Assembly: GCA_965227835.1 (NCBI GenBank)
Contig: OZ245768.1
Location: forward strand, 390,001 to 422,000
Length of the DNA stretch: 32,000 nucleotides
Direction: 5' to 3'
Source: Candidatus Saccharimonadota bacterium
GTDB lineage: Bacteria > Patescibacteriota > Gracilibacteria > BD1-5 > UBA6164
Shown here in pieces: positions 8,642 to 28,937 of this stretch; position 1 is the stretch's first letter, and the number at the start of each line of letters is the position of its first letter. The translations under genes and the position numbers were made by a program. The notes under the pieces are model-generated. The model saw only the letters and a program-made list of their open reading frames with translations. It was not told where the DNA came from and did no database searches.

Positions 8642-9760
8642 TTAATATTCTAAATTAGGATAGTTCATATTTACTTCTTGGAAATGTATTCTTTGTCTTT
8701 CTCTTACTGTTTTTATCATTTCATTGCTGGGGTTCATTTCTTTAAATAAAATGTCCATTTCACTTACTACATAATCTATTTCTTCATTTATTTCTTTACC
8801 TAAATCTGTGAAAAGAGCATACTTTTTTATTACTTTTTGTAGGAATTTTGTCTTTATGTAAAAAAGAATTATTTTTTCAAACCATCATTTATCATCTCAA
8901 AGAGCTCAAGAAAGGTATGCTTTCATTATTATATACATAGTAGGGGCAAAGGCATGGTATCATAGAAACACTCAGTGTATATGTCTAGCATCTGGTCTTA
9001 TGGCTGAATAATATTTTTCTTCTTTTGAGTTTAGGATTACTGGATCAAACTGCATAAGTAAATTTAGTTTATTATGAGACGATTCGTGTATTACGGCTTC
9101 CAAATTGTTTATTTCGGGAGTATTTGAATCTATAGTATATCATAGATAAAGATGTCCTACACATTCTTTATAACTAGCTGAATTGTGAATAGATTTTGCT
9201 GTACCCAAGGGTATTATTTTTGTTATAATTTGATTTAGTTCATCATATATTCACCTATCTACTTTTTTTAGAAGTTCAAAAGTTTTTTTATAAACTTCTA
9301 GCCACTCTTGTTTACTTTTTTCTCACCAATTTCAAGCTACAGCTCAAAGTTGTTTGTGTTCTGGATGGGCATCTCTTCAATTATAGGGGTTATTGTCTGT
9401 ATCTGTGAGTCTGATTTGAGTTCAATAAATTTTATCTCATTTGTTTTGTGATAATTTATCTGAAGATATTCATTCCTCTAAAAATATTTCTATTTCTTCC
9501 TTTAATTTAATGATTTCTATCTCTGGGGATGTATTTTCATTTAGACTTATTACTATTCAATTTATCAAAGAGGATATATCTGCATTTAGTATAAAATTTT
9601 TACAATCTTTTTTTAAAAGCTTTTCTATTTCTTCTTTTAATATTCATTTTTCTTGTAAATTTTTTAAATCATCTAATAGTTTTTGATAATATTTTTGAAA
9701 ATAATTTTTTAATAGGGGAGAGTCCTTGGTTCATAAAACATAGTATTTTAATTCTTTCAT
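8642..9760 (-). CDS. HEXXH-motif domain protein (peptide-modification-associated family candidate)
   Basis: 373 codons checked, from ATG at 9758-9760 to TAA at 8642-8644, 11 nt upstream of the DUF2130-like gene start. HESSH is at 9074-9088 in the context NNLEAVIHESSHNKLNLL, followed by RPDARHIHGVFLGYHAF. From memory this resembles the HEXXH-motif domain family found next to radical SAM/SPASM maturases. It needs an HMM search. Confidence 0.7.
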
Positions 9761-9942
9761 ATCCGTTTAAATTATCTTTTAAGTTATATAATTATTATCT
9801 CTTGAAATTATATTATTTTAGCTTTTAAATGCAATAAATTTGAAGAAAAATTTGATATTTTACTTTATTTAAATAGTATCTAGGATACAAGTTTTACTTG
9901 TTTTTTGAATAATGTTATCTTTTTTGTTTTAGGAGGTAAAAA

Positions 9943-10686
9943 ATGGATACAAGTTTTCATAATATAAAGGCTGATAGTTATGAGGTAACTAGGGTTAATA
10001 AACTGGTGAAAAACACCTATATTACCATCGGTATAGGGATTATGCTTAGTGCTATATCCTCTTATTTTACTTTGAATGTTAATATAAGTTTGTTTCCACT
10101 TATATTGATGCTTGCCTCTATGTTTGGTCTAATTTTTGCAATTAGTCATTTCAAAAATAGTGCTATTGGTTTGTTCCTCTTTTTTGCTTTTACAGCACTT
10201 ATGGGAGCTTTCGTAGGACCGGCTATAGGTCTTTACCTAGATTTGCCTAACGGGAAAAACATTGTTACTATGGCATTTACTATGACAACTTTTGTATTTA
10301 TAAGTTTGTCTTGTTATGTTCATATTAGCAAAAAAGAATTCAGCTTTATCGGAGGTTTTCTTTTTACTGGATTGATATTGCTAATTGTTGCAATGATACT
10401 CAATATTTTTTTCTATCATCCTGTCTTCCATTTGGTGATAAGTTGTGTGGCTGTTCTTGTATTTTCTGGTTTTATTTTATATGATACTTCTAGAATGGTA
10501 CATGAACATAATGGTAACTATATTGAGTTAGCATTGTCGCAATTCTTAAATATTTTTAATCTATTCATACATTTATTATCCATTCTTGGGATACTTTCTG
10601 ATGATTGATTAAGAAAAATAAAAGGAGTTTACCTAAAACACCCTGCTTTGAAAAAAGCAGGGTGGTTTTTTAAAATTCCATATTAA
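9943..10686 (+). CDS. Bax inhibitor-1/YccA family membrane protein (ancestral stop TGA at 10606-10608; reads on to TAA 10684-10686 under table 25)
   Basis: Strong SD aggaggt 7 nt upstream of the ATG. Seven-TM-like profile with the C-terminal LYDTSRM...LFIHLLSILGI signature of the BI-1/YccA family. All 14 Gly are GGN, with no internal TGA. GC is visibly higher than in the flanks. The TGA after ...SDD is followed by an intrinsic terminator that lies inside the table-25 extension. Confidence 0.85.
10639..10671 (+). terminator. intrinsic terminator of the BI-1 gene
   Basis: caccctgct-ttgaaaaa-agcagggtg followed by gtttttt. Confidence 0.8.
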
Positions 10687-10814
10687 TAAATACTGGTATC
10701 TATCTACTATACAGTTAATTTAAAATTCAATCTAAAAATTGCTTTAATAAATAAACTATGCTAAAATTTTATATACTTATTAAATTTATATTTTAATTCA
10801 TAAACTCATAAAAA

Positions 10815-12713
10815 ATGGGGACATCTTTAAGTACAAGAGAATCTTTTTGATGATTATCAGAATCAAGTGAAGAAAATAATACTTCAGAGTATATAAGTGA
10901 TAATCCAATTATAGTTGAGGTGGAGCAAAAAATAGCTGAAATAAAAAAGCTATATGATTCTTGAGAGCAAAGTAAAAATGAATATCTTAATTGAGTTCTT
11001 GAATCTTTGGAAGACCTTCTTGAAAGAATTAAGAAAGATAAAAGTGGTGTTTCTTTTGAGACTAAAGCTCATATTTATGATTTGAGAAAAGATGCAATTT
11101 TATGATTATTAGAATGAAAAGTTATAGACTATAATACTGTAGAAAGTAGAGATATAGAGAGAAATGAAGTTTTAGATAGTTTGATAAACTATGATAACTT
11201 TTCCTTAAATGAGAATTTCTTTGACAATTATATAGAAGAATATAAAAAATATAATCCTGATAGTCTTGTAAAAATGAAAAAAGAAAAAATAAAATTACTC
11301 TCAGATAAATTTTTGAAAAATAATGAGGAATTTGAAAATACTGTAAGAAATATGCAATATTTCTACGATGCTAATCTAGAATATATTAATTATAATTTTG
11401 AAGACATTCTTTTAAATGAATATAGCTATAATTTGTTTTCTTCTATTTGACAAAAAGATATAGATAGATTTTTAGATAAAAAACAAAATCTTTGAATAAC
11501 AAATAATTTTTTTAATAAAAATGATTTATTATCTATATTTGAAAAATTTTTAGAAGATGATACTTATTTAGATAAATATTTAGGCCTATCAAATACTTCT
11601 TTATTTAAAGCTAGAATTATAGGAATAAGTAGTAGAATGAAGATAGAAGATTTGGAATATTTTGCCGATTTATTTCAATGATTTAATGGTTTTTCTGTTT
11701 GGTTATGACATAGATTGGAGTATATACTTGATTGAGAGTATGGTGCCTATAATATAAGATCTATTTTAAATAGTAAAAAGTTAGAAAAATATTTTAAAGT
11801 TTGAAAGCTTAATTTACATGAATTAGAAACATTTATTTTGAGTTTAAAATATTATGATTTTTCAAGAAAAAAATTAGATATAAATAAATATGCAAAATTA
11901 CTTGATAGACTATATGATAAATGATATAAAATTACAAACAATATTGATTTTTTAACCTTAGCTTCTCAATTAGATACTATAGAGGAGTTTTGATTGGAAG
12001 ATATGATAGTTGAAAATAATATTTCAAACTTTTCTCGTTTTACTAAAGAAGATTTAATTAGATTAAAAAATGATTTTGAAGATATTGAAAATAAAGATAG
12101 AAAAATAGCTTTATTGGTATTTTCCAAATCAGATCACAACTGAGTATTTTCTATACATAAATTTTTACCAAATAAGAAAATCCCAGAGGATTATAAAATA
12201 GTTTATTATGAAGTGAATTGAGAGAGTGATTTCTATGGTATTTTGGATAGATATAAATGAGCTGAACAGAAAATAGATTTAATGGTTTTAGCTTGACATG
12301 GTAATGAGGATTTAGTTCAACTAGGATGAACACCTAAAAGGGATTTAATTGGTGTTAATCTTGAAGAAAGTAGAGATTACTATCTAAGCTCATATGATGA
12401 ACAATATCTTACCAGATTTGATAGTGATGAAATCTCATCTTTTGTTGATAGTTTTTGAGAAAACTCTAATATTATTCTTCATTCTTGTATAGCTTGAAAA
12501 TGAGAAAAATCTACGGCTAAAGCAATATCCTCTGCTTTATGAAGTAATGTTACTATATATGGAGCAGATGAAAGTATACAAAATACTAATATTTCCTTTT
12601 GAGATTGATGAGAAATAAAGTCTGTAGAGTTTTGATCTTTTTTACAAAAAATAAATACTGTTATTTATAGTAATTGAAATTTGTTTGAATGAGAAAATTG
12701 AGAACAAGTTTAG
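10815..12713 (+). CDS. hypothetical 632-aa protein with C-terminal caspase/CHAT/CPD-like (clan CD-type His-Cys dyad) domain
   Basis: 633 codons translated triplet by triplet, from ATG at 10815 to TAG at 12711-12713, with many in-frame TGA. The C-terminal ~200 aa reads ALLVFSKSDHNG...DLMVLAGHGNEDLVQLGG (His codon 12297-12299) ...SNIILHSCIAGKGEKSTAKAISSALGSNVTIYGADESI (Cys codon 12486-12488). This is the xGHG / hhhhxxC pattern of caspase-fold peptidases (CHAT, DUF4347, C80 CPD). Confidence 0.7.
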
Positions 12714-12737
12714 ATTTTCTTTGAAGCAAACAAAAAT

Positions 12738-12766
12738 TTGACATTTTTATACTATTGTGATATAAT
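12738..12766 (+). promoter_or_regulatory. consensus sigma70 promoter with extended -10 (TTGACA-17-TGaTATAAT)
   Basis: ttgaca at 12738-12743, a 17-nt spacer ending in tga, and tataat at 12761-12766. Confidence 0.6.
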
Positions 12767-12909
12767 ATATTTGTTTTTTGTGATAGATACTAATCTATAT
12801 TTAAACTGGGTTATTATAAAAATCTTTTTTAAGTTTTCCTTATTTTAAGTGTTTTTATGATAATTTAAAGACATTTAAATATAGATCATCTATTTATCAT
12901 GAATTAATG

Positions 12910-12965
12910 TTTTGAGCTACCAATTTATTAATAAGATTTTTTATTGGTAGTTTGGTAGCTCAAAA
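12910..12965 (+). other. structured 5' leader element with nested or alternative hairpins
   Basis: ttttgagctaccaa at 12910-12923 pairs perfectly with ttggtagctcaaaa at 12952-12965. The inner ctaccaat can instead pair with attggtag at 12943-12950. The element sits in a leader of about 240 nt between the consensus promoter and the ATG at 13007. Confidence 0.4.
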
Positions 12966-13006
12966 TACCTTTAATCTAAATTTTTCTCAATCAAAAGGTA
13001 AAAATC

Positions 13007-13261
13007 ATGAAAAAATTATTAATTATTTTTCTTCTTTTTGCTGTTGTTTTGTCTTTTTCACCACTTTACTTAGCTGAAAGGCACTACGATCAAAATGGAA
13101 ATTTTACTCACTCCACTCCTATTTTTCCTACTTTTGATCTATCACTTATGAGGGATCCAAGTAATTGTGAAACAAACGAGCAGGTTCCTCGCGATAGTAT
13201 TTTAAATCTTGTAGGAATAGAGGTATTTAAGTGTAAATTTCCTAAAGAAGAAGAACTATAA
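13007..13261 (+). CDS. small secreted protein (84 aa), hypothetical
   Basis: Intact in the ORF track. N-terminal signal peptide MKKLLIIFLLFAVVLSFSPLYLA. No TGA. Ends in TAA and is followed by a clean terminator. Confidence 0.65.
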   Translation: MKKLLIIFLLFAVVLSFSPLYLAERHYDQNGNFTHSTPIFPTFDLSLMRDPSNCETNEQVPRDSILNLVGIEVFKCKFPKEEEL

Positions 13262-13274
13262 ATAGATGAAAAAG

Positions 13275-13307
13275 AAAGCATAGAGGATAAAATCCTCTAT
13301 GCTTTTT
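13275..13307 (+). terminator. intrinsic terminator
   Basis: aaagcatagagga-taaaa-tcctctatgcttt followed by tt. It also lies just downstream of the convergent pilin-like gene. Confidence 0.7.
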
Positions 13308-13324
13308 AAATTTACTAAATTAAA

Positions 13325-19331: not shown

Positions 19332-20535
19332 GGGTCTGTTGCAAATTAGATTTTAGCTATTAAAAAGAGAAAAAAGAGATATAATTAGATAGTAATTATA
19401 TTCTAAGAAAATACCTATGTGAGAATCAAATCAAATAAGTTTTGTTATCCTAAACGAGCTAATTCCAGAAAATCATCAATATCGTAAATTTAAGAAATTG
19501 TGGAACTTTGATTGAGTAAATAAAATACTAAAAAATATAGATCTATGAAAAACTCATGTATGATATTGAGTAAAAAAATTATTTCTATGTTTACTAATCC
19601 AGTTTATGGAAGATCTATCAGATAGAGAGTTAGAGAAATATCTTGCAGAAAATTTAGCTGGTAAATGGTTTTGCTGATTTAAATTAACAGATAAAACTCC
19701 AGATTATAGTATATTCTCAAGAGCAAGAAAAAAGATATGAACAAATGAACTATCAAAGATATTTGAAGATTTAAAAAATCAATTATCAAATAAGGGGTAT
19801 ATGAGTGAAGTGTTTACATTTGTAGATGCTTCTCATTTAGTTACTAAAGCTAATTTATGGGAAGAAAGAGATAAATGAATAAAAGAATGATATGAAAAAA
19901 TGAATAATGAAACTCTTCCAAAAGTTGCTAATGATAAGGAAGCTAAAATTTGATCTAAGTGAAAAAATAAATTTTGGTATGGTTATAAAAAACACGCTAG
20001 TGTTGATATGCAATCTTGAATGATAAACAAGATAGCTATAACTCAAGCTAATGTAACAGATGCAAAGTGAATGAAACATGTATTACCAAATTCATGAGCA
20101 GTATATGCTGATAAGTGATATTGTATTTGACCAGCTATATTATCATCAAAAAAGAAGTGATTACATTTATGTGCAATAAAGAAGAATAATATGAAAGAGA
20201 AGGATAAGGATAAAGATAGATTTTATTCTAAACTTAGATCTCCTTATGAGAGAGTATTTTCAAAAATGAATCATAGAGTGAGATATAAATCTGTAGTAAA
20301 AAACCAGTTTACTGCATTTATGGAAGCTATATCTTTTAATCTCAAAAGATTGGTTGTATTAGAGGAAATCCCAATAGCTTAGATTAGTTTCCTTAGGTGG
20401 ATTTTGTCTAAAATCCTAAATTATATATAAAAATGGCTATAATTTAACAAAAAATAGATGAATTTTATAAATCTTTCATCTATTTAGTACTTTTCTTAAT
20501 TAAAACTCTTTTTAAAATCAAAACGCAACAGACCC
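19332..20535 (+). mobile_element. IS5-family insertion sequence (about 1.2 kb) with terminal inverted repeats and a 5-bp flanking direct repeat
   Basis: Left end gggtctgttgc at 19332-19342 and right end gcaacagaccc at 20525-20535 form a perfect 11-bp IR. AATAT lies immediately outside both ends (19327-19331 and 20536-20540). It contains one transposase ORF. Confidence 0.8.
19417..20382 (+). CDS. IS5-family DDE transposase (DUF772-type N-terminus)
   Basis: 322 codons translated. LIPENHQYRKF is typical of the InsH/DUF772 N-terminus. FVDASH, AVYADKGY and RSPYERVFSKM match the D, D, E regions of the IS5/IS4 superfamily. I count 17 in-frame TGA, for example in GYGVKK and ADKGY. TAG at 20380-20382. 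Confidence 0.85.
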
Positions 20536-22910: not shown

Positions 22911-22945
22911 GAAATTACTTTTGTTAAACTAAAGAGGAGGGAGTT

Positions 22946-23371
22946 ATGTATTTTGCAAAAGTTTTTTTTCTTATTGCTATATTGCTACAATTATCATCCT
23001 GTATTTCTACTAATACATATAACAAATATAAAGGATGTGAAATTGTTAATGGTACTTTTATTGGTTTAAAAACTCCTGGAAAAATAGCATGCTTTGATAA
23101 AATACAGGGTGATGTTTTAAGGGTATATTATGAATCATATAGACATAGTAAATCTAGAACACTTATAAAATTTTCACTATATGATAAACTATCCAATATA
23201 TCAAAAAGTGAAAATCCTATTTCTAAATATACCATATCATCTAAAAAAAATCCTATTTATTTACTTAATGTATGCTATAATGGTTATCATCATAGACTTT
23301 ATGCTAAAGCTAATTATAAGGAATTGGAGTTTGAATTTCGTAAGTTAAAAAGTAGATTAAAAAGATGTTAA
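22946..23371 (+). CDS. putative lipoprotein (141 aa)
   Basis: Intact in the ORF track. Strong SD agaggaggg. Signal peptide with lipobox LQLSSC. All six Gly are GGN, with no TGA. Ends in TAA plus a strong terminator. Confidence 0.75.
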   Translation: MYFAKVFFLIAILLQLSSCISTNTYNKYKGCEIVNGTFIGLKTPGKIACFDKIQGDVLRVYYESYRHSKSRTLIKFSLYDKLSNISKSENPISKYTISSKKNPIYLLNVCYNGYHHRLYAKANYKELEFEFRKLKSRLKRC

Positions 23372-23390
23372 TATATAGTTTTAAGAACTA

Positions 23391-23428
23391 AAAAACTCCC
23401 CAAAACTTAAACTTTTTGGGGAGTTTTT
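23391..23428. terminator. bidirectional intrinsic terminator (15-bp stem)
   Basis: aaaaactccccaaaa-cttaaact-ttttggggagttttt. It lies between the lipoprotein stop (23371) and the giant ORF stop (23431). Confidence 0.8.
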
Positions 23429-27876: not shown

Positions 27877-28042
27877 TTTTTGTTTTTGTTTTTATTTTGA
27901 TTTTTTGAGTTTTCAATTTGATTTTTATGTTAAAAATCTTTTTAAATTTTTTTAAAATTTATTTTCATTGTTTTCTTTTTATATCACGATATCTCCCTTG
28001 ATATTCATTAAATTTTTGTGGAAACATACTATCATAATAATA

Positions 28043-28885
28043 TTTATATATACTTCATAACTCACCAGCTCATATTTCCATTCTTTCCCATAATCCTACG
28101 AAGGTTTTGTCATCAGAACTTTCTAATAAACTTAACCAAAAATCCATTAATTCCTTTCCAATTTTTTCCCTGTTTTCTCATTCTTCTAAGACAATCTCTT
28201 CCATAGGTTTACATAACTTGCCTTCTCCCCAATAGTTAGCTGCACTATTATCTACAACTACGGGTAAATCTTCATTTATAATTTCTGTTTGAGTTGAACA
28301 CATTTTATTTAAATTGCTTATTATAGAATTTATTCTACTATTTATATTTGAAATATTTTCACTATTTTTTTCTTCTCTATTTATTAGATAATCATGCATT
28401 TCATTAAGAATATCAAACACTCCATCAATACTTTCTTTTCTTCTATTAGATAATTCTGTTTCTATTTCTCTTATTCTTTCATCAAAAACTGTAAAATTTT
28501 CACCTGATTCTAGACTTAAACCAATAAATTGGCTATTTAAAGAATCTATTTTTTCCTGTAATATTGCTAAAGTAGATAAATTACTATTACCCATTCACAT
28601 TTCTTCTAGAAGATTTTCTATAGCATCTAACTGGTTTCTAAAATCTTGATTTTCTATCATAAGTCTTTCATTTTCTCTTGTAATTCTTTTATTATCATTT
28701 TGTAAATTTTCATTAACACATCATAAAGAATCTACTTCTCTTCCTAGAGCATCTAATTTTTCTCTTGTATCACCACCTATAATAAACTCAGATACTCCAG
28801 ATAACCAAGAGGAATTTTCATTATTACTTCCTTCTCCATTATTTTCTGGAATATCACATTCATATCTGTTTTCTAAATTTCCCAT
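28043..28885 (-). CDS. coiled-coil protein (280 aa), hypothetical
   Basis: 281 codons checked. It extends ORF-track fragment 28178..28594 in both directions across TGA. It starts MGNLENRYECDIPENNGEG, has heptad-like E/N/L-rich stretches, and ends in a W-rich tail. TAA at 28043-28045. Confidence 0.65.
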
Positions 28886-28937
28886 AAAAATTAAATTAAA
28901 AAATTATTTTATAAATTGTTTTGTTATTTTTTTATAT

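What the first reader, a model, noticed from the sequence alone, without database searches (positions are those of the whole stretch)
9943..10686. Fossil TGA stop: a BI-1/YccA gene apparently imported from a standard-code donor into a TGA=Gly genome
This 221-codon gene has no internal TGA. All 14 Gly are GGN, whereas in neighbouring native genes roughly half or more of the Gly codons are TGA by my count. It has a strong aggaggt SD that native genes here lack, and visibly higher GC than the flanks. It ends where BI-1 family proteins normally end, at a TGA (10606-10608), followed 30 nt later by a textbook terminator (10639-10671). In the host code that TGA is Gly, so translation should run through the terminator hairpin itself (...GLRKIKGVYLKHPALKKAGWFFKIPY) to TAA at 10684-10686. 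This would be a direct footprint of horizontal transfer across a genetic-code boundary. It also raises the question of whether the 25-aa tail is tolerated, or whether TGA termination is context-dependent here.
Basis: partly seen in the sequence, partly recalled or inferred. Interest (0 to 1): 0.75.

Follow-up and report, generated by a model that had tools for sequence, protein, structure and literature searches.

The report
Imported BI-1 gene with fossil stop
A bacterium that reads TGA as glycine carries a membrane-protein gene (BI-1/YccA) taken from a standard-code bacterium; the gene keeps its old ribosome-binding site, TGA stop and terminator, so the old stop should now be read as glycine and translation should run on through the terminator.

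Summary
The window comes from a Candidatus Gracilibacteria genome (about 25% GC) in which TGA encodes glycine: TGA occupies invariant P-loop Gly positions. Native genes use TGA for 66% of Gly codons.

The 221-codon BI-1/YccA gene (9943-10605) has 0 TGA among 14 Gly (P = 2.6e-7 binomial, 1.7e-5 beta-binomial). It has the highest GC3 in the window and one of only two Shine-Dalgarno sites among 23 genes.

Its core ends exactly where 80 proteobacterial homologs and the solved YetJ structure end. There it meets TGA (10606), a perfect 11-bp terminator hairpin (10639-10664 plus a T-run), and then TAA (10684). All non-self homologs (at most 48% identity) come from standard-code Gamma- or Betaproteobacteria. 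These show the same stop, ~20-50 nt spacer and terminator layout, and 38% of them stop at TGA.

A closely related contig (L089) has one copy of the site that lacks about 874 bp (9845-10718). It also has a second copy in which an insertion sequence (IS) has truncated the gene.

Horizontal import with a fossil stop is well supported. The donor is unsampled. Read-through into a 26-aa basic tail, and possibly stop-less mRNAs, is inferred and not shown.

The parts
9845..10718 (+). Inserted cassette (about 874 bp): 5' leader, SD, BI-1 ORF, old stop, terminator and a short 3' stretch
   Evidence: This stretch is replaced by 14 nt at the homologous intergenic site upstream of copy A of the 632-aa gene in the related contig L089. 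The flanks match at 95% (9767-9844) and 99% (10719-10815). The left boundary is uncertain by about 35 nt. ATTTAAAT / ATTTAAAAT lie at the two junctions.
9931..9937 (+). Shine-Dalgarno site AGGAGGT, 5 nt before the ATG
   Evidence: 20 of the 23 genes in the window have no SD-like motif, one has only a weak AGGA, and none was seen upstream of about 30 genes in the relatives L085 and L086.
9943..10605 (+). BI-1/YccA core ORF: 221 codons, no TGA, 14 GGN Gly codons
   Evidence: Pfam PF01027 E = 1.6e-46, covering profile positions 1-207 of 207. The AlphaFold model has 7 TM helices. Foldseek matches B. subtilis YetJ with TM-score 0.80.
10606..10608 (+). TGA: the ancestral stop position, a Gly codon in this genome
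   Evidence: 80 proteobacterial homologs and YetJ end at the aligned residue (...SDD/SGDD). 30 of the 80 homologs stop with TGA. The same TGA is present in L089.
10609..10683 (+). 25-codon read-through tail LRKIKGVYLKHPALKKAGWFFKIPY (net charge about +7)
   Evidence: Translation is. No homolog has a counterpart. Model pLDDT falls from 55 to 35 along the tail. The distal part differs in L089 (CFVLDSS) because of an indel after the hairpin.
10639..10671 (+). Intrinsic terminator: 11-bp perfect stem, 4-nt loop, G + T6
   Evidence: The 59 nt from the TGA to the end of the stem are 100% identical in L089. The same kind of hairpin follows yccA in nearly all proteobacterial homologs.
10684..10686 (+). 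First in-frame stop that this genome recognises (TAA), 13 nt after the T-run

Best explanation
What it is. An expression cassette of about 0.87 kb was acquired by horizontal transfer into an intergenic spacer of a code-25 (TGA = Gly) Gracilibacteria genome. It comprises a leader with a strong SD, a 221-codon BI-1/YccA membrane-protein gene, a TGA stop, about 30 nt of spacer and a GC-rich intrinsic terminator. The donor used the standard code and carried a proteobacterial-type yccA. The cassette has not yet been adapted to the host code. It has gained no TGA-Gly codons and it keeps an SD that native genes do not use.

What happens now. The old stop is a sense codon, because the host decodes UGA as Gly and this lineage is reported to lack RF2. 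Ribosomes should therefore insert Gly at 10606 and continue for 25 more codons, through the terminator hairpin, to TAA at 10684. The product would be a 247-aa protein with a strongly basic, unstructured tail on what is normally a short acidic C-terminus predicted to face outward.

The terminator conflict. The hairpin and T-run lie upstream of that TAA. Two outcomes follow:
- If the terminator works, the transcript ends near 10671 with no stop codon, which would call for ribosome rescue.
- If translating ribosomes suppress the terminator, transcription reads into the next gene.

Shown versus inferred.
- Shown: the code, the codon and SD anomaly, the family and fold, the position of the ancestral end, the donor-type layout, the presence/absence difference, and the IS-truncated copy in a relative.
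- Inferred: read-through at this site, the fate of the mRNA and protein, and whether the gene is still useful.
For: Code 25:
- TGA sits at invariant P-loop Gly positions.
- ORF content is 4.6-fold higher when TGA is treated as sense.

Anomaly of the gene:
- 0 TGA of 14 Gly against 66% in native genes, P = 2.6e-7 or 1.7e-5.
- GC3 is 0.258, the highest in the window.
- It has one of only two strong SD sites among 23 genes.
- In the relative L085 the ribosomal protein L19 gene has 5 TGA and 4 GGN and no SD. TGA avoidance plus an SD is therefore not simply a trait of highly expressed native genes.

Foreign ancestry:
- Every named homolog and every locus examined outside this lineage is standard-code, the named ones Gamma- or Betaproteobacteria, at 36-48% identity.
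- The native LysS finds Gracilibacteria at 64-73%.

Fossil stop and layout:
- The core ends at the family's normal end.
- 30 of 80 homologs stop with TGA, and nearly all are followed within about 20-50 nt by a GC-rich hairpin and T-run.
- The terminator here is strong.

Discrete insertion:
- The related contig L089 has the same flanks at 95-99% identity with the cassette missing.
- L089 also has a second copy of the site with the same TGA, tail start and hairpin.
- The right-hand junction is thus confirmed in an independent assembly.

Literature:
- UGA = Gly in Gracilibacteria is validated by proteomics, prfB is absent from all available BD1-5 genomes, and acquisition from a Colwellia-like bacterium has been proposed for another marine gracilibacterium (PMC6851277).
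- tmRNA rescue of proteins whose stop codon is not recognised has been shown in recoded E. coli (PMC6207430).
Against: - No donor or close homolog (above 48% identity) exists in any collection searched. The protein is the most divergent member of its clade: 16 of 63 conserved columns differ, against a mean of 2.1 and a maximum of 14 for the others. Its FYMINK and GARP contents lie outside the homolog range. The transfer may therefore be old or indirect, which makes the complete lack of TGA less expected.
- Non-Gly codon use is intermediate and does not separate the gene from one native membrane protein.
- The other SD-led, TGA-free gene (22946-23371) is an ORFan with a native-like GC3 of 0.099. 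SD plus no TGA is therefore not proven to mark imports.
- The missing cassette in L089 could equally be a deletion. L089 is a 3.6x contig that may join two strains at an IS.
- Nothing here shows transcription, read-through, the tail, or tmRNA tagging.
- prfB, ssrA, tRNA-Gly(UCA) and the 16S anti-SD lie outside the window.
Confidence: 0.78

Rival explanations
1. The cassette is a failed or decaying import. Terminated transcripts lack a stop codon and the tail is harmful, so little or no functional BI-1 is made and the gene is drifting toward loss.
For: - The terminator lies inside the code-25 reading frame. Its hairpin ends at 10664, the T-run at 10671, and the TAA is at 10684.
- The relative L089 has lost the first 436 nt of the gene next to an IS with no target-site duplication, so the gene is dispensable.
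- The L089 fragment also changes an otherwise invariant Tyr (ILYD to ILHD).
- The protein deviates at 16 of 63 conserved columns.
- tmRNA destroys products of genes whose stop is not recognised in recoded E. coli (PMC6207430).
Against: - The 221-codon frame is fully open in 25%-GC DNA, where TAA and TAG arise easily.
- All 38 columns invariant across the 16-sequence alignment are kept, and many of the deviations are conservative.
- The SD and the hairpin are intact.
- Ribosomes translating through the hairpin could suppress termination and reach the TAA.
Confidence: 0.3
2. The gene is native, or long resident, and belongs to a small class of genes that are selected to avoid TGA and to use an SD, for instance for special translational control.
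For: - Two genes in the window share the three traits of SD, no TGA and their own terminator. The second is an ORFan with native-like GC3.
- The BI-1 amino-acid composition is strongly AT-shifted, as expected after long residence.
Against: - No Gracilibacteria homolog turned up in any search except the near-identical L089 fragment.
- The stop and terminator layout is that of the proteobacterial genes, with the old stop out of place in this code.
- A cassette-less version of the site exists.
- The L19 gene in a relative uses TGA and has no SD.
Confidence: 0.08
3. TGA at 10606 still terminates translation here through context-dependent or competing termination, so the normal 221-aa protein is made.
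For: The layout would then be perfectly functional: stop, 30-nt spacer, terminator.
Against: - TGA is used as Gly 356 times in the window's other genes, including at invariant catalytic-motif positions.
- prfB was not detected in any available BD1-5 genome, and UGA = Gly is validated by proteomics (PMC6851277).
- No special sequence context was identified.
Confidence: 0.05
4. Assembly artefact: a fragment of another organism was spliced into the contig.
For: It is a single gene with foreign features inside a metagenome-derived genome.
Against: - The right-hand junction (terminator to the upstream region of the 632-aa gene) recurs in the independently assembled contig L089 at 96-100% identity.
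- The gene is only 31% GC.
- Both flanks are native, TGA-rich genes on one 1.49-Mb contig.
Confidence: 0.02

Closest known systems
Proteobacterial YccA (FtsH protease modulator; BI-1/TMBIM family, Pfam PF01027)
   Same: - Full-length family match and about the same length (221 aa against 219-227).
- The same C-terminal end (...LLSILGILSDD here, ...IHLLSILGILDD in Psychromonas).
- The same LNIFNLF motif, with Asn where YetJ has Asp.
- The same gene layout, with an intrinsic terminator shortly after the stop.
   Different: - At most 48% identity.
- It scores 139 bits against a cutoff of 353 for NCBI's YccA equivalog model.
- It deviates at 16 of 63 conserved columns.
- It sits in a TGA = Gly genome, so it is predicted to carry a 26-aa basic tail.
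- It lacks the gammaproteobacterial neighbourhood of tusD/C/B/E-type (DsrE/DsrC) genes.
Bacillus subtilis YetJ (solved BI-1 structure, 4PGR and related entries)
   Same: - Seven-helix fold: Foldseek TM-score 0.80 normalised to the target.
- The sequence alignment runs to the last residues of both proteins, 221 here and 211 of 212 in YetJ.
- The first Asp of the pH-sensor pair is conserved (LYD).
   Different: - About 26% identity.
- The second sensor Asp (D195, YLDF) is Asn here.
- YetJ has nothing corresponding to the tail.
Code-11-compatible phages predicted to infect Gracilibacteria and Absconditabacteria (Liu et al. 2023, PMC10746230)
   Same: Their genes have no in-frame TGA although the host reads TGA as Gly. 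Where TGA is the stop, translation is expected to continue to a nearby backup stop.
   Different: Those are phage genomes, with backup stops described as lying in close proximity. Here it is a single chromosomal cellular gene whose next stop lies 26 codons away, beyond its own terminator. No phage or integrase genes are nearby, and no closer phage or plasmid homolog exists.
Recoded E. coli lacking RF1: incoming UAG-ending genes (Ma et al. 2018, PMC6207430)
   Same: A foreign gene's stop codon is not recognised as a stop by the recipient. The outcomes include C-terminal extension and tmRNA/ArfA/ArfB rescue, which impairs horizontal transfer.
   Different: That system is engineered and the codon is unassigned. 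Here the case is natural and the codon is fully assigned to Gly, so simple read-through is expected and rescue is needed only if the mRNA ends at the terminator.
Colwellia-like acquired region in a marine gracilibacterium (Sieber et al. 2019, PMC6851277)
   Same: A marine Gracilibacteria genome carries genes most similar to Alteromonadales-type Gammaproteobacteria, which are possible hosts.
   Different: [quoted passage not shown] Here the imported gene has no TGA sense codon and still shows its old stop.

Membership tests
BI-1 / YccA / TMBIM family (Pfam PF01027 Bax1-I) | Full-length match to the family profile above the curated cutoff | tested here: met
   159.2 bits against a cutoff of 34.1, E = 1.6e-46. 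Residues 19-215 cover profile positions 1-207 of 207.
BI-1 / YccA / TMBIM family (Pfam PF01027 Bax1-I) | Seven-transmembrane-helix fold as in YetJ | tested here: met
   The AlphaFold model has pTM 0.72. Its helices are 4-46, 53-69, 74-99, 104-129, 136-157, 160-187 and 193-218. Foldseek finds YetJ with probability 1.00 and TM-score 0.77-0.81 normalised to the target.
BI-1 / YccA / TMBIM family (Pfam PF01027 Bax1-I) | Protein ends a few residues after TM7 (short acidic C-terminus in bacterial members) | tested here: inconclusive
   The core up to the TGA ends exactly there. Under the host code the predicted product carries 26 extra residues. Which product is actually made was not testable.
YetJ-type pH-gated Ca2+ leak channel | Di-aspartyl sensor (YetJ D171 and D195) | tested here: not met
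   The first Asp is present (LYD, D181). The second position is Asn (FLNIFNLF against YetJ YLDFINLF), as in the proteobacterial YccA proteins.
E. coli-type YccA equivalog (NCBIfam NF007765) | Score above the equivalog cutoff | tested here: not met
   139.2 bits against a cutoff of 353. This is a family member, not a demonstrated functional equivalent. Modulation of FtsH is not testable here.
Genetic code 25 genome (Gracilibacteria / Absconditabacteria) | In-frame TGA at conserved Gly positions of native genes | tested here: met
   TGA occupies the Walker A Gly positions in three ATPases/GTPases and conserved Gly positions in ThrS and a radical-SAM-like protein. There are 356 TGA against 182 GGN. 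LysS relatives are named Candidatus Gracilibacteria.
Genetic code 25 genome (Gracilibacteria / Absconditabacteria) | Loss of RF2 (prfB) and presence of tRNA-Gly(UCA) | not testable with these tools
   There are no tRNA genes in the window and the rest of the genome could not be fetched. The literature reports prfB absent from all available BD1-5 genomes (PMC6851277).
Horizontally acquired gene | Nearest relatives lie outside the host lineage while neighbouring genes' relatives lie inside it | tested here: met
   BI-1 finds Gamma- and Betaproteobacteria at 36-48% identity. LysS finds Gracilibacteria at 64-73%. The NJ tree places the gene on a long branch beside an unnamed standard-code sequence.
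Horizontally acquired gene | Deviation in composition and codon use from the host | tested here: met
   No TGA-Gly codon and the highest GC3 in the window. Non-Gly codon use is only intermediate.
Horizontally acquired gene | Presence/absence difference with conserved flanks in a close relative | tested here: met
   The L089 A-site lacks window 9845-10718, with flanks at 95-99% identity. The direction of the event (insertion or deletion), and whether the two L089 copies are paralogs or alleles, remain unresolved.
Intrinsic (Rho-independent) terminator | GC-rich stem-loop immediately followed by a T-run | tested here: met
   11-bp perfect stem with 6 G-C pairs, 4-nt loop, G + T6. The 91-nt stretch around it folds at -27.1 kcal/mol, z = -5.4. 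Activity in vivo is not testable.

The most novel reading that the evidence does not exclude
The code boundary acts as a built-in filter on imported genes. The donor's terminator sits between the old TGA stop and the next stop the host recognises. In the TGA = Gly host, properly terminated BI-1 transcripts therefore carry no stop codon, ribosomes stall at the 3' end, and the product is tagged by tmRNA and destroyed. Only read-through transcripts would yield a tail-bearing protein. The gene would be largely silent, which would explain why a close relative has let an IS truncate it. Genome-wide, such stop-then-terminator cassettes would be a natural counterpart of the tmRNA-based genetic isolation seen in recoded E. 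coli.
Probability: 0.22. Interest if true: 0.7.

Novelty: new member of a known kind. Interest (0 to 1): 0.5.

Why it matters
Whether alternative genetic codes isolate lineages from gene flow is an old question, usually argued from theory, from phages or from engineered strains. This locus is a natural chromosomal case caught before adaptation. The whole donor expression unit is still legible: the SD, a TGA-free frame, the old TGA stop and the terminator. A sister contig shows both a version of the site without the cassette and a version where it is broken.

It makes several questions directly testable:
- Is a TGA-ending import read through?
- Does the extra tail matter?
- Does a terminator placed inside the new reading frame produce stop-less mRNAs?
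- How fast do imports pick up TGA-Gly codons and lose their SD?

It also offers a simple recipe for listing recent imports in code-25 and code-4 genomes: a TGA-free gene with an SD, whose homologs end at an in-frame TGA. The homolog taxa (marine Alteromonadales and Oceanospirillales types) hint at who the donor, and perhaps the host, might be.

In itself it is one gene of a well-known family. The consequence, extension past a reassigned stop, is what current knowledge predicts.

Tried and rejected
- Fetching the source genome. Exact-product look-ups for BI-1 (247 aa), LysS and the 141-aa lipoprotein all failed. prfB, ssrA, tRNA-Gly(UCA), the 16S anti-SD and a genome-wide census could therefore not be checked.
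- Synteny in Gracilibacteria relatives at about 72% LysS identity. Gene order is not conserved, so this was uninformative.
- Candidates on small-genome or long contigs (P0030, P0064, P0118). All are standard-code, 44-59% GC, with no TGA-sense genes.
- The 192-aa hits. They come from a typical gammaproteobacterial context with DsrE/DsrC-type genes.
- P0092, which shares the PVFHLVIS motif and groups with the window gene in the NJ tree. It lies on a 1.5-kb contig of 37% GC that appears standard-code, and identity is only 43%, so it is not a donor.
- A phage or plasmid vector. The best phage hits are 34-35% identical and the best plasmid hit 38%, with no mobile-element genes next to the cassette.
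- JGI metagenomes. There was no exact match to the TGA/tail DNA and no close protein relative.
- A codon-usage likelihood test of native against Psychromonas/Colwellia-like usage without Gly. The result was intermediate and not decisive.
- Rfam search for a regulatory RNA in or around the cassette. Nothing was found.
- Promoter scan. Matches are at chance level in this AT-rich DNA, so no promoter is claimed.
- The IS that truncates the gene in L089. It is not present in the window.
- The 141-aa SD-led TGA-free gene as a second proven import. It has no homologs at all, so its origin remains open.
Full report
**1. The window and its code.**
The window is about 25% GC. With all three standard stops it holds only 21 ORFs of at least 100 codons (2,875 aa). 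With TAA/TAG only it holds long, tightly packed ORFs totalling 13,109 aa.

In those ORFs TGA is far commoner than TGG and occupies invariant glycine positions. Examples are the P-loop GPVGSGKST, encoded as TGA CCT GTA TGA TCT TGA AAA TCT ACA, GGPRQVGKTT, FTGGEP, and the ThrS motifs. So TGA = Gly (table 25).

The native LysS finds proteins named Candidatus Gracilibacteria at 64-73% identity. It also finds itself on a 1,489,121-bp contig. The public protein set holds this genome translated with TGA = Trp. This explains the 96% self-hit and the W at residue 222 of the stored BI-1 protein.

**2. The observation.**
- SD AGGAGGT at 9931-9937 and ATG at 9943.
- 221 codons without TGA, with 14 Gly codons that are all GGN.
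- TGA at 10606-10608.
- A perfect 11-bp hairpin at 10639-10664, followed by G + T6.
- TAA at 10684-10686.

The other genes analysed in the window use 356 TGA and 182 GGN. Zero of 14 gives P = 2.6e-7 (binomial), or 1.7e-5 if genes are allowed to differ (beta-binomial). GC3 is 0.258, against 0.095-0.191 for all other genes.

Of 23 gene starts, 20 have no SD-like motif and one has only a weak AGGA. The two strong SDs belong to BI-1 and to 22946-23371, the only other TGA-free gene. AGGAGG is not enriched in the window as a whole, with 5 copies against 4.8 expected. Two of the five nevertheless sit 5 nt before these two ATGs.

About 30 genes in two Gracilibacteria relatives also lack an SD. The ribosomal protein L19 gene there has 5 TGA and 4 GGN. 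TGA avoidance with an SD is therefore not simply the mark of a highly expressed native gene.

**3. What the gene is.**
It is a full-length Bax1-I/YccA family protein (PF01027, E = 1.6e-46, profile positions 1-207 of 207).
- The AlphaFold model shows seven TM helices.
- The model matches only B. subtilis YetJ in the PDB, with TM-score about 0.80.
- It is below NCBI's cutoff for an E. coli YccA equivalog.
- Like proteobacterial YccA, it has Asn at the second position of YetJ's di-Asp sensor.

**4. Where the family ends.**
Sixteen aligned homologs, 80 genome-derived homologs and the YetJ crystal chain all end at the residue aligned with ...LSDD. Psychromonas has ...IHLLSILGILDD; the window has ...IHLLSILGILSDD. 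The TGA is therefore at the ancestral stop position.

Among the 80 homologs the stops are TAA 42, TGA 30 and TAG 8. Nearly all are followed within about 20-50 nt by a GC-rich hairpin and T-run. The window has the same layout: a 30-nt spacer, then a hairpin. The 91-nt stretch 10600-10690 containing it folds at -27.1 kcal/mol, z = -5.4.

Native genes here also use terminators, for instance at 13305-13275 and 23391-23428. In those cases the hairpin follows a TAA or TAG.

**5. Ancestry.**
The sources searched were:
- a word-indexed search of 5.8 billion proteins;
- an exhaustive HMMER search of 1.84 billion representatives;
- a scan of 185,579 species genomes.

The best non-self full-length relatives are 36-48% identical. 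Wherever named, they are Gamma- or Betaproteobacteria: Psychromonas, Colwellia, Glaciecola, Oceanospirillaceae, Halieaceae, Nitrosomonas and Thauera. The contigs I inspected are standard-code. No closer homolog exists on phages or plasmids or in JGI metagenomes.

In a distance tree the gene sits on a long branch. It differs from the proteobacterial consensus at 16 of 63 columns that are at least 90% conserved, against a mean of 2.1 and a maximum of 14 for the others. It is richer in FYMINK and poorer in GARP and Gly than any homolog.

Low-GC Psychromonas yccA genes have GC 0.33-0.38 and GC3 0.24-0.40. An AT-rich donor could therefore account for much of the composition without long residence. 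Non-Gly codon use is intermediate. The donor is unsampled and the age of the transfer is open.

**6. A relative with and without the cassette.**
The exhaustive search found a 97-aa fragment that is 94% identical to residues 151-221. It carries the same TGA and the same tail start. Its contig L089 (ENA, 41.6 kb, 3.6x coverage) matches the window at 84-97% DNA identity over LysS, DUF2130, the 372-aa gene and the downstream genes.

L089 carries two copies, A and B, of the 632-aa gene that follows BI-1. A and B are 82% identical to each other.

Upstream of copy A:
- The flanks match the window at 95% (9767-9844) and 99% (10719-10815).
- Window 9845-10718 is replaced by 14 nt.

Upstream of copy B:
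- The BI-1 3' part from window position 10379 onward is present.
- It is preceded by an IS with terminal repeats GGGACCTCTGCAA / TTGCAGAGGTCCC and no target duplication.

Between window and L089 the remaining 227 nt of ORF differ at 8 sites, 4 of them non-synonymous and one changing the invariant ILYD to ILHD. The 59 nt from the TGA to the end of the hairpin are identical. The sequence after the hairpin differs by an indel.

The window's 632-aa gene is a clean mosaic: like A for about 750 nt, then like B. A and B may therefore be paralogs, or alleles of two strains joined by the assembler at the IS.

Either way:
- The cassette is a discrete unit of about 0.87 kb bounded by native spacer.
- Its right-hand junction is confirmed in an independent assembly.
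- It predates the roughly 3-4% divergence of the two genomes.
- It is dispensable in the relative.

**7. What should happen in the cell (inferred).**
UGA = Gly in Gracilibacteria has been validated by proteomics, and prfB was not found in any available BD1-5 genome (PMC6851277). Ribosomes should therefore read Gly at 10606 and add LRKIKGVYLKHPALKKAGWFFKIPY. This tail has a net charge of about +7, no homolog counterpart, and pLDDT of 55 falling to 35.

The distribution of Lys and Arg in the loops fits an N-in, C-out topology. By that reading, which is my inference from the sequence, the tail would place a cluster of positive charges on the outer face.

From textbook knowledge, intrinsic termination releases RNA within the U-tract, here at about 10669-10673. 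That lies before the TAA at 10684. A terminated transcript would have no stop codon in this code. Such a transcript is the substrate of tmRNA/ArfA/ArfB rescue, shown to block expression of genes with unrecognised stops in recoded E. coli (PMC6207430). Alternatively, ribosomes translating through the hairpin may suppress it and let transcription run into the 632-aa gene. None of this could be tested here.

**8. Comparison with what is known.**
Liu et al. (PMC10746230) described phages predicted to infect Gracilibacteria whose genes lack in-frame TGA. Their TGA stops are backed up by nearby stops. Sieber et al. [quoted passage not shown]

The present locus is a cellular, chromosomal gene still in donor format. 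I found no description of such a case in the papers searched, but it is what present knowledge predicts. I rate it a new member of a known kind, with moderate interest.

**9. Verdict.**
- Observation: confirmed.
- Horizontal import across the code boundary with a fossil TGA stop: supported, confidence about 0.8.
- Read-through with a 26-aa tail: likely.
- Stop-less mRNA and loss of function: possible, about 0.2-0.3.
- Context-dependent termination, native origin or artefact: unlikely.

Noticed in passing
window 22935-23428 (+): This is a second self-contained cassette. It has a strong SD (AGGAGG, 5 nt before the ATG at 22946), a 141-aa lipoprotein-like ORF (signal peptide plus Cys) with 0 TGA among 6 Gly, a TAA stop and a 15-bp terminator hairpin (23391-23428). 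Unlike BI-1 it has a very low GC3 (0.099) and no homolog at all in 5.8 billion proteins, so its origin is unknown.
   Followed up: partly
window 27959-28903 (-): A 308-aa protein of unknown function with a coiled-coil-like sequence is TGA-poor: 6 TGA against 17 GGN, P = 1e-4 against the window average. It has no SD.
   Followed up: no
window 10815-12713 (+); L089 6859-8748 and 10365-12215: The 632-aa gene downstream of BI-1 is a clean recombinant. Its first ~750 nt are 97-100% identical to copy A of the related contig and the rest 97-100% identical to copy B, while A and B are only 82% alike. This suggests a fast-diverging gene, possibly for a surface protein, that is shuffled by recombination between paralogs or strains.
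   Followed up: partly
L089 about 8781-9988: An IS with a DUF772/DDE_Tnp_1 transposase and terminal repeats GGGACCTCTGCAA / TTGCAGAGGTCCC abuts BI-1 at window position 10379, with no target-site duplication. This implies an IS-associated deletion or rearrangement, or an assembly join at a repeated IS. This IS is absent from the window.
   Followed up: partly
window 9883-9895 and 9945-9957: There is an exact 13-nt direct repeat, GGATACAAGTTTT, once in the BI-1 leader and again at codons 1-5. The upstream copy forms a small hairpin (ACAAGT-TTT-ACTTGT) followed by T6. The ACTTGT arm could pair instead with the copy inside the ORF. Chance cannot be excluded, since about 0.5 such repeats are expected in 2 kb of this composition by my own estimate.
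   Followed up: no
window 12714-13324: A 610-nt gap has no convincing gene. It contains a perfect consensus promoter (TTGACA-17-TATAAT with an upstream TG, 12738-12766, + strand) and a 14-bp hairpin at 13275-13305. No Rfam family reaches its threshold, so this could be an undescribed RNA gene.
   Followed up: partly
whole window / public protein records P0001, P0123: The public protein collection holds this genome translated with TGA = Trp (table 4) rather than Gly. Every stored protein therefore has Trp at its TGA positions, about 4% of residues in LysS.
   Followed up: yes
window 19417-20382 (+): An IS5-like transposase (DUF772 plus DDE_Tnp_1) is written in the host code, with 17 TGA codons, one of them at codon 2. 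This contrasts with the BI-1 cassette.
   Followed up: no
window 10606-10612: The old stop reads TGATTAA, so a TAA lies one base out of frame directly after the TGA. A tandem TGA-TAA stop disrupted by a 1-nt insertion is conceivable but untestable with one lineage.
   Followed up: no
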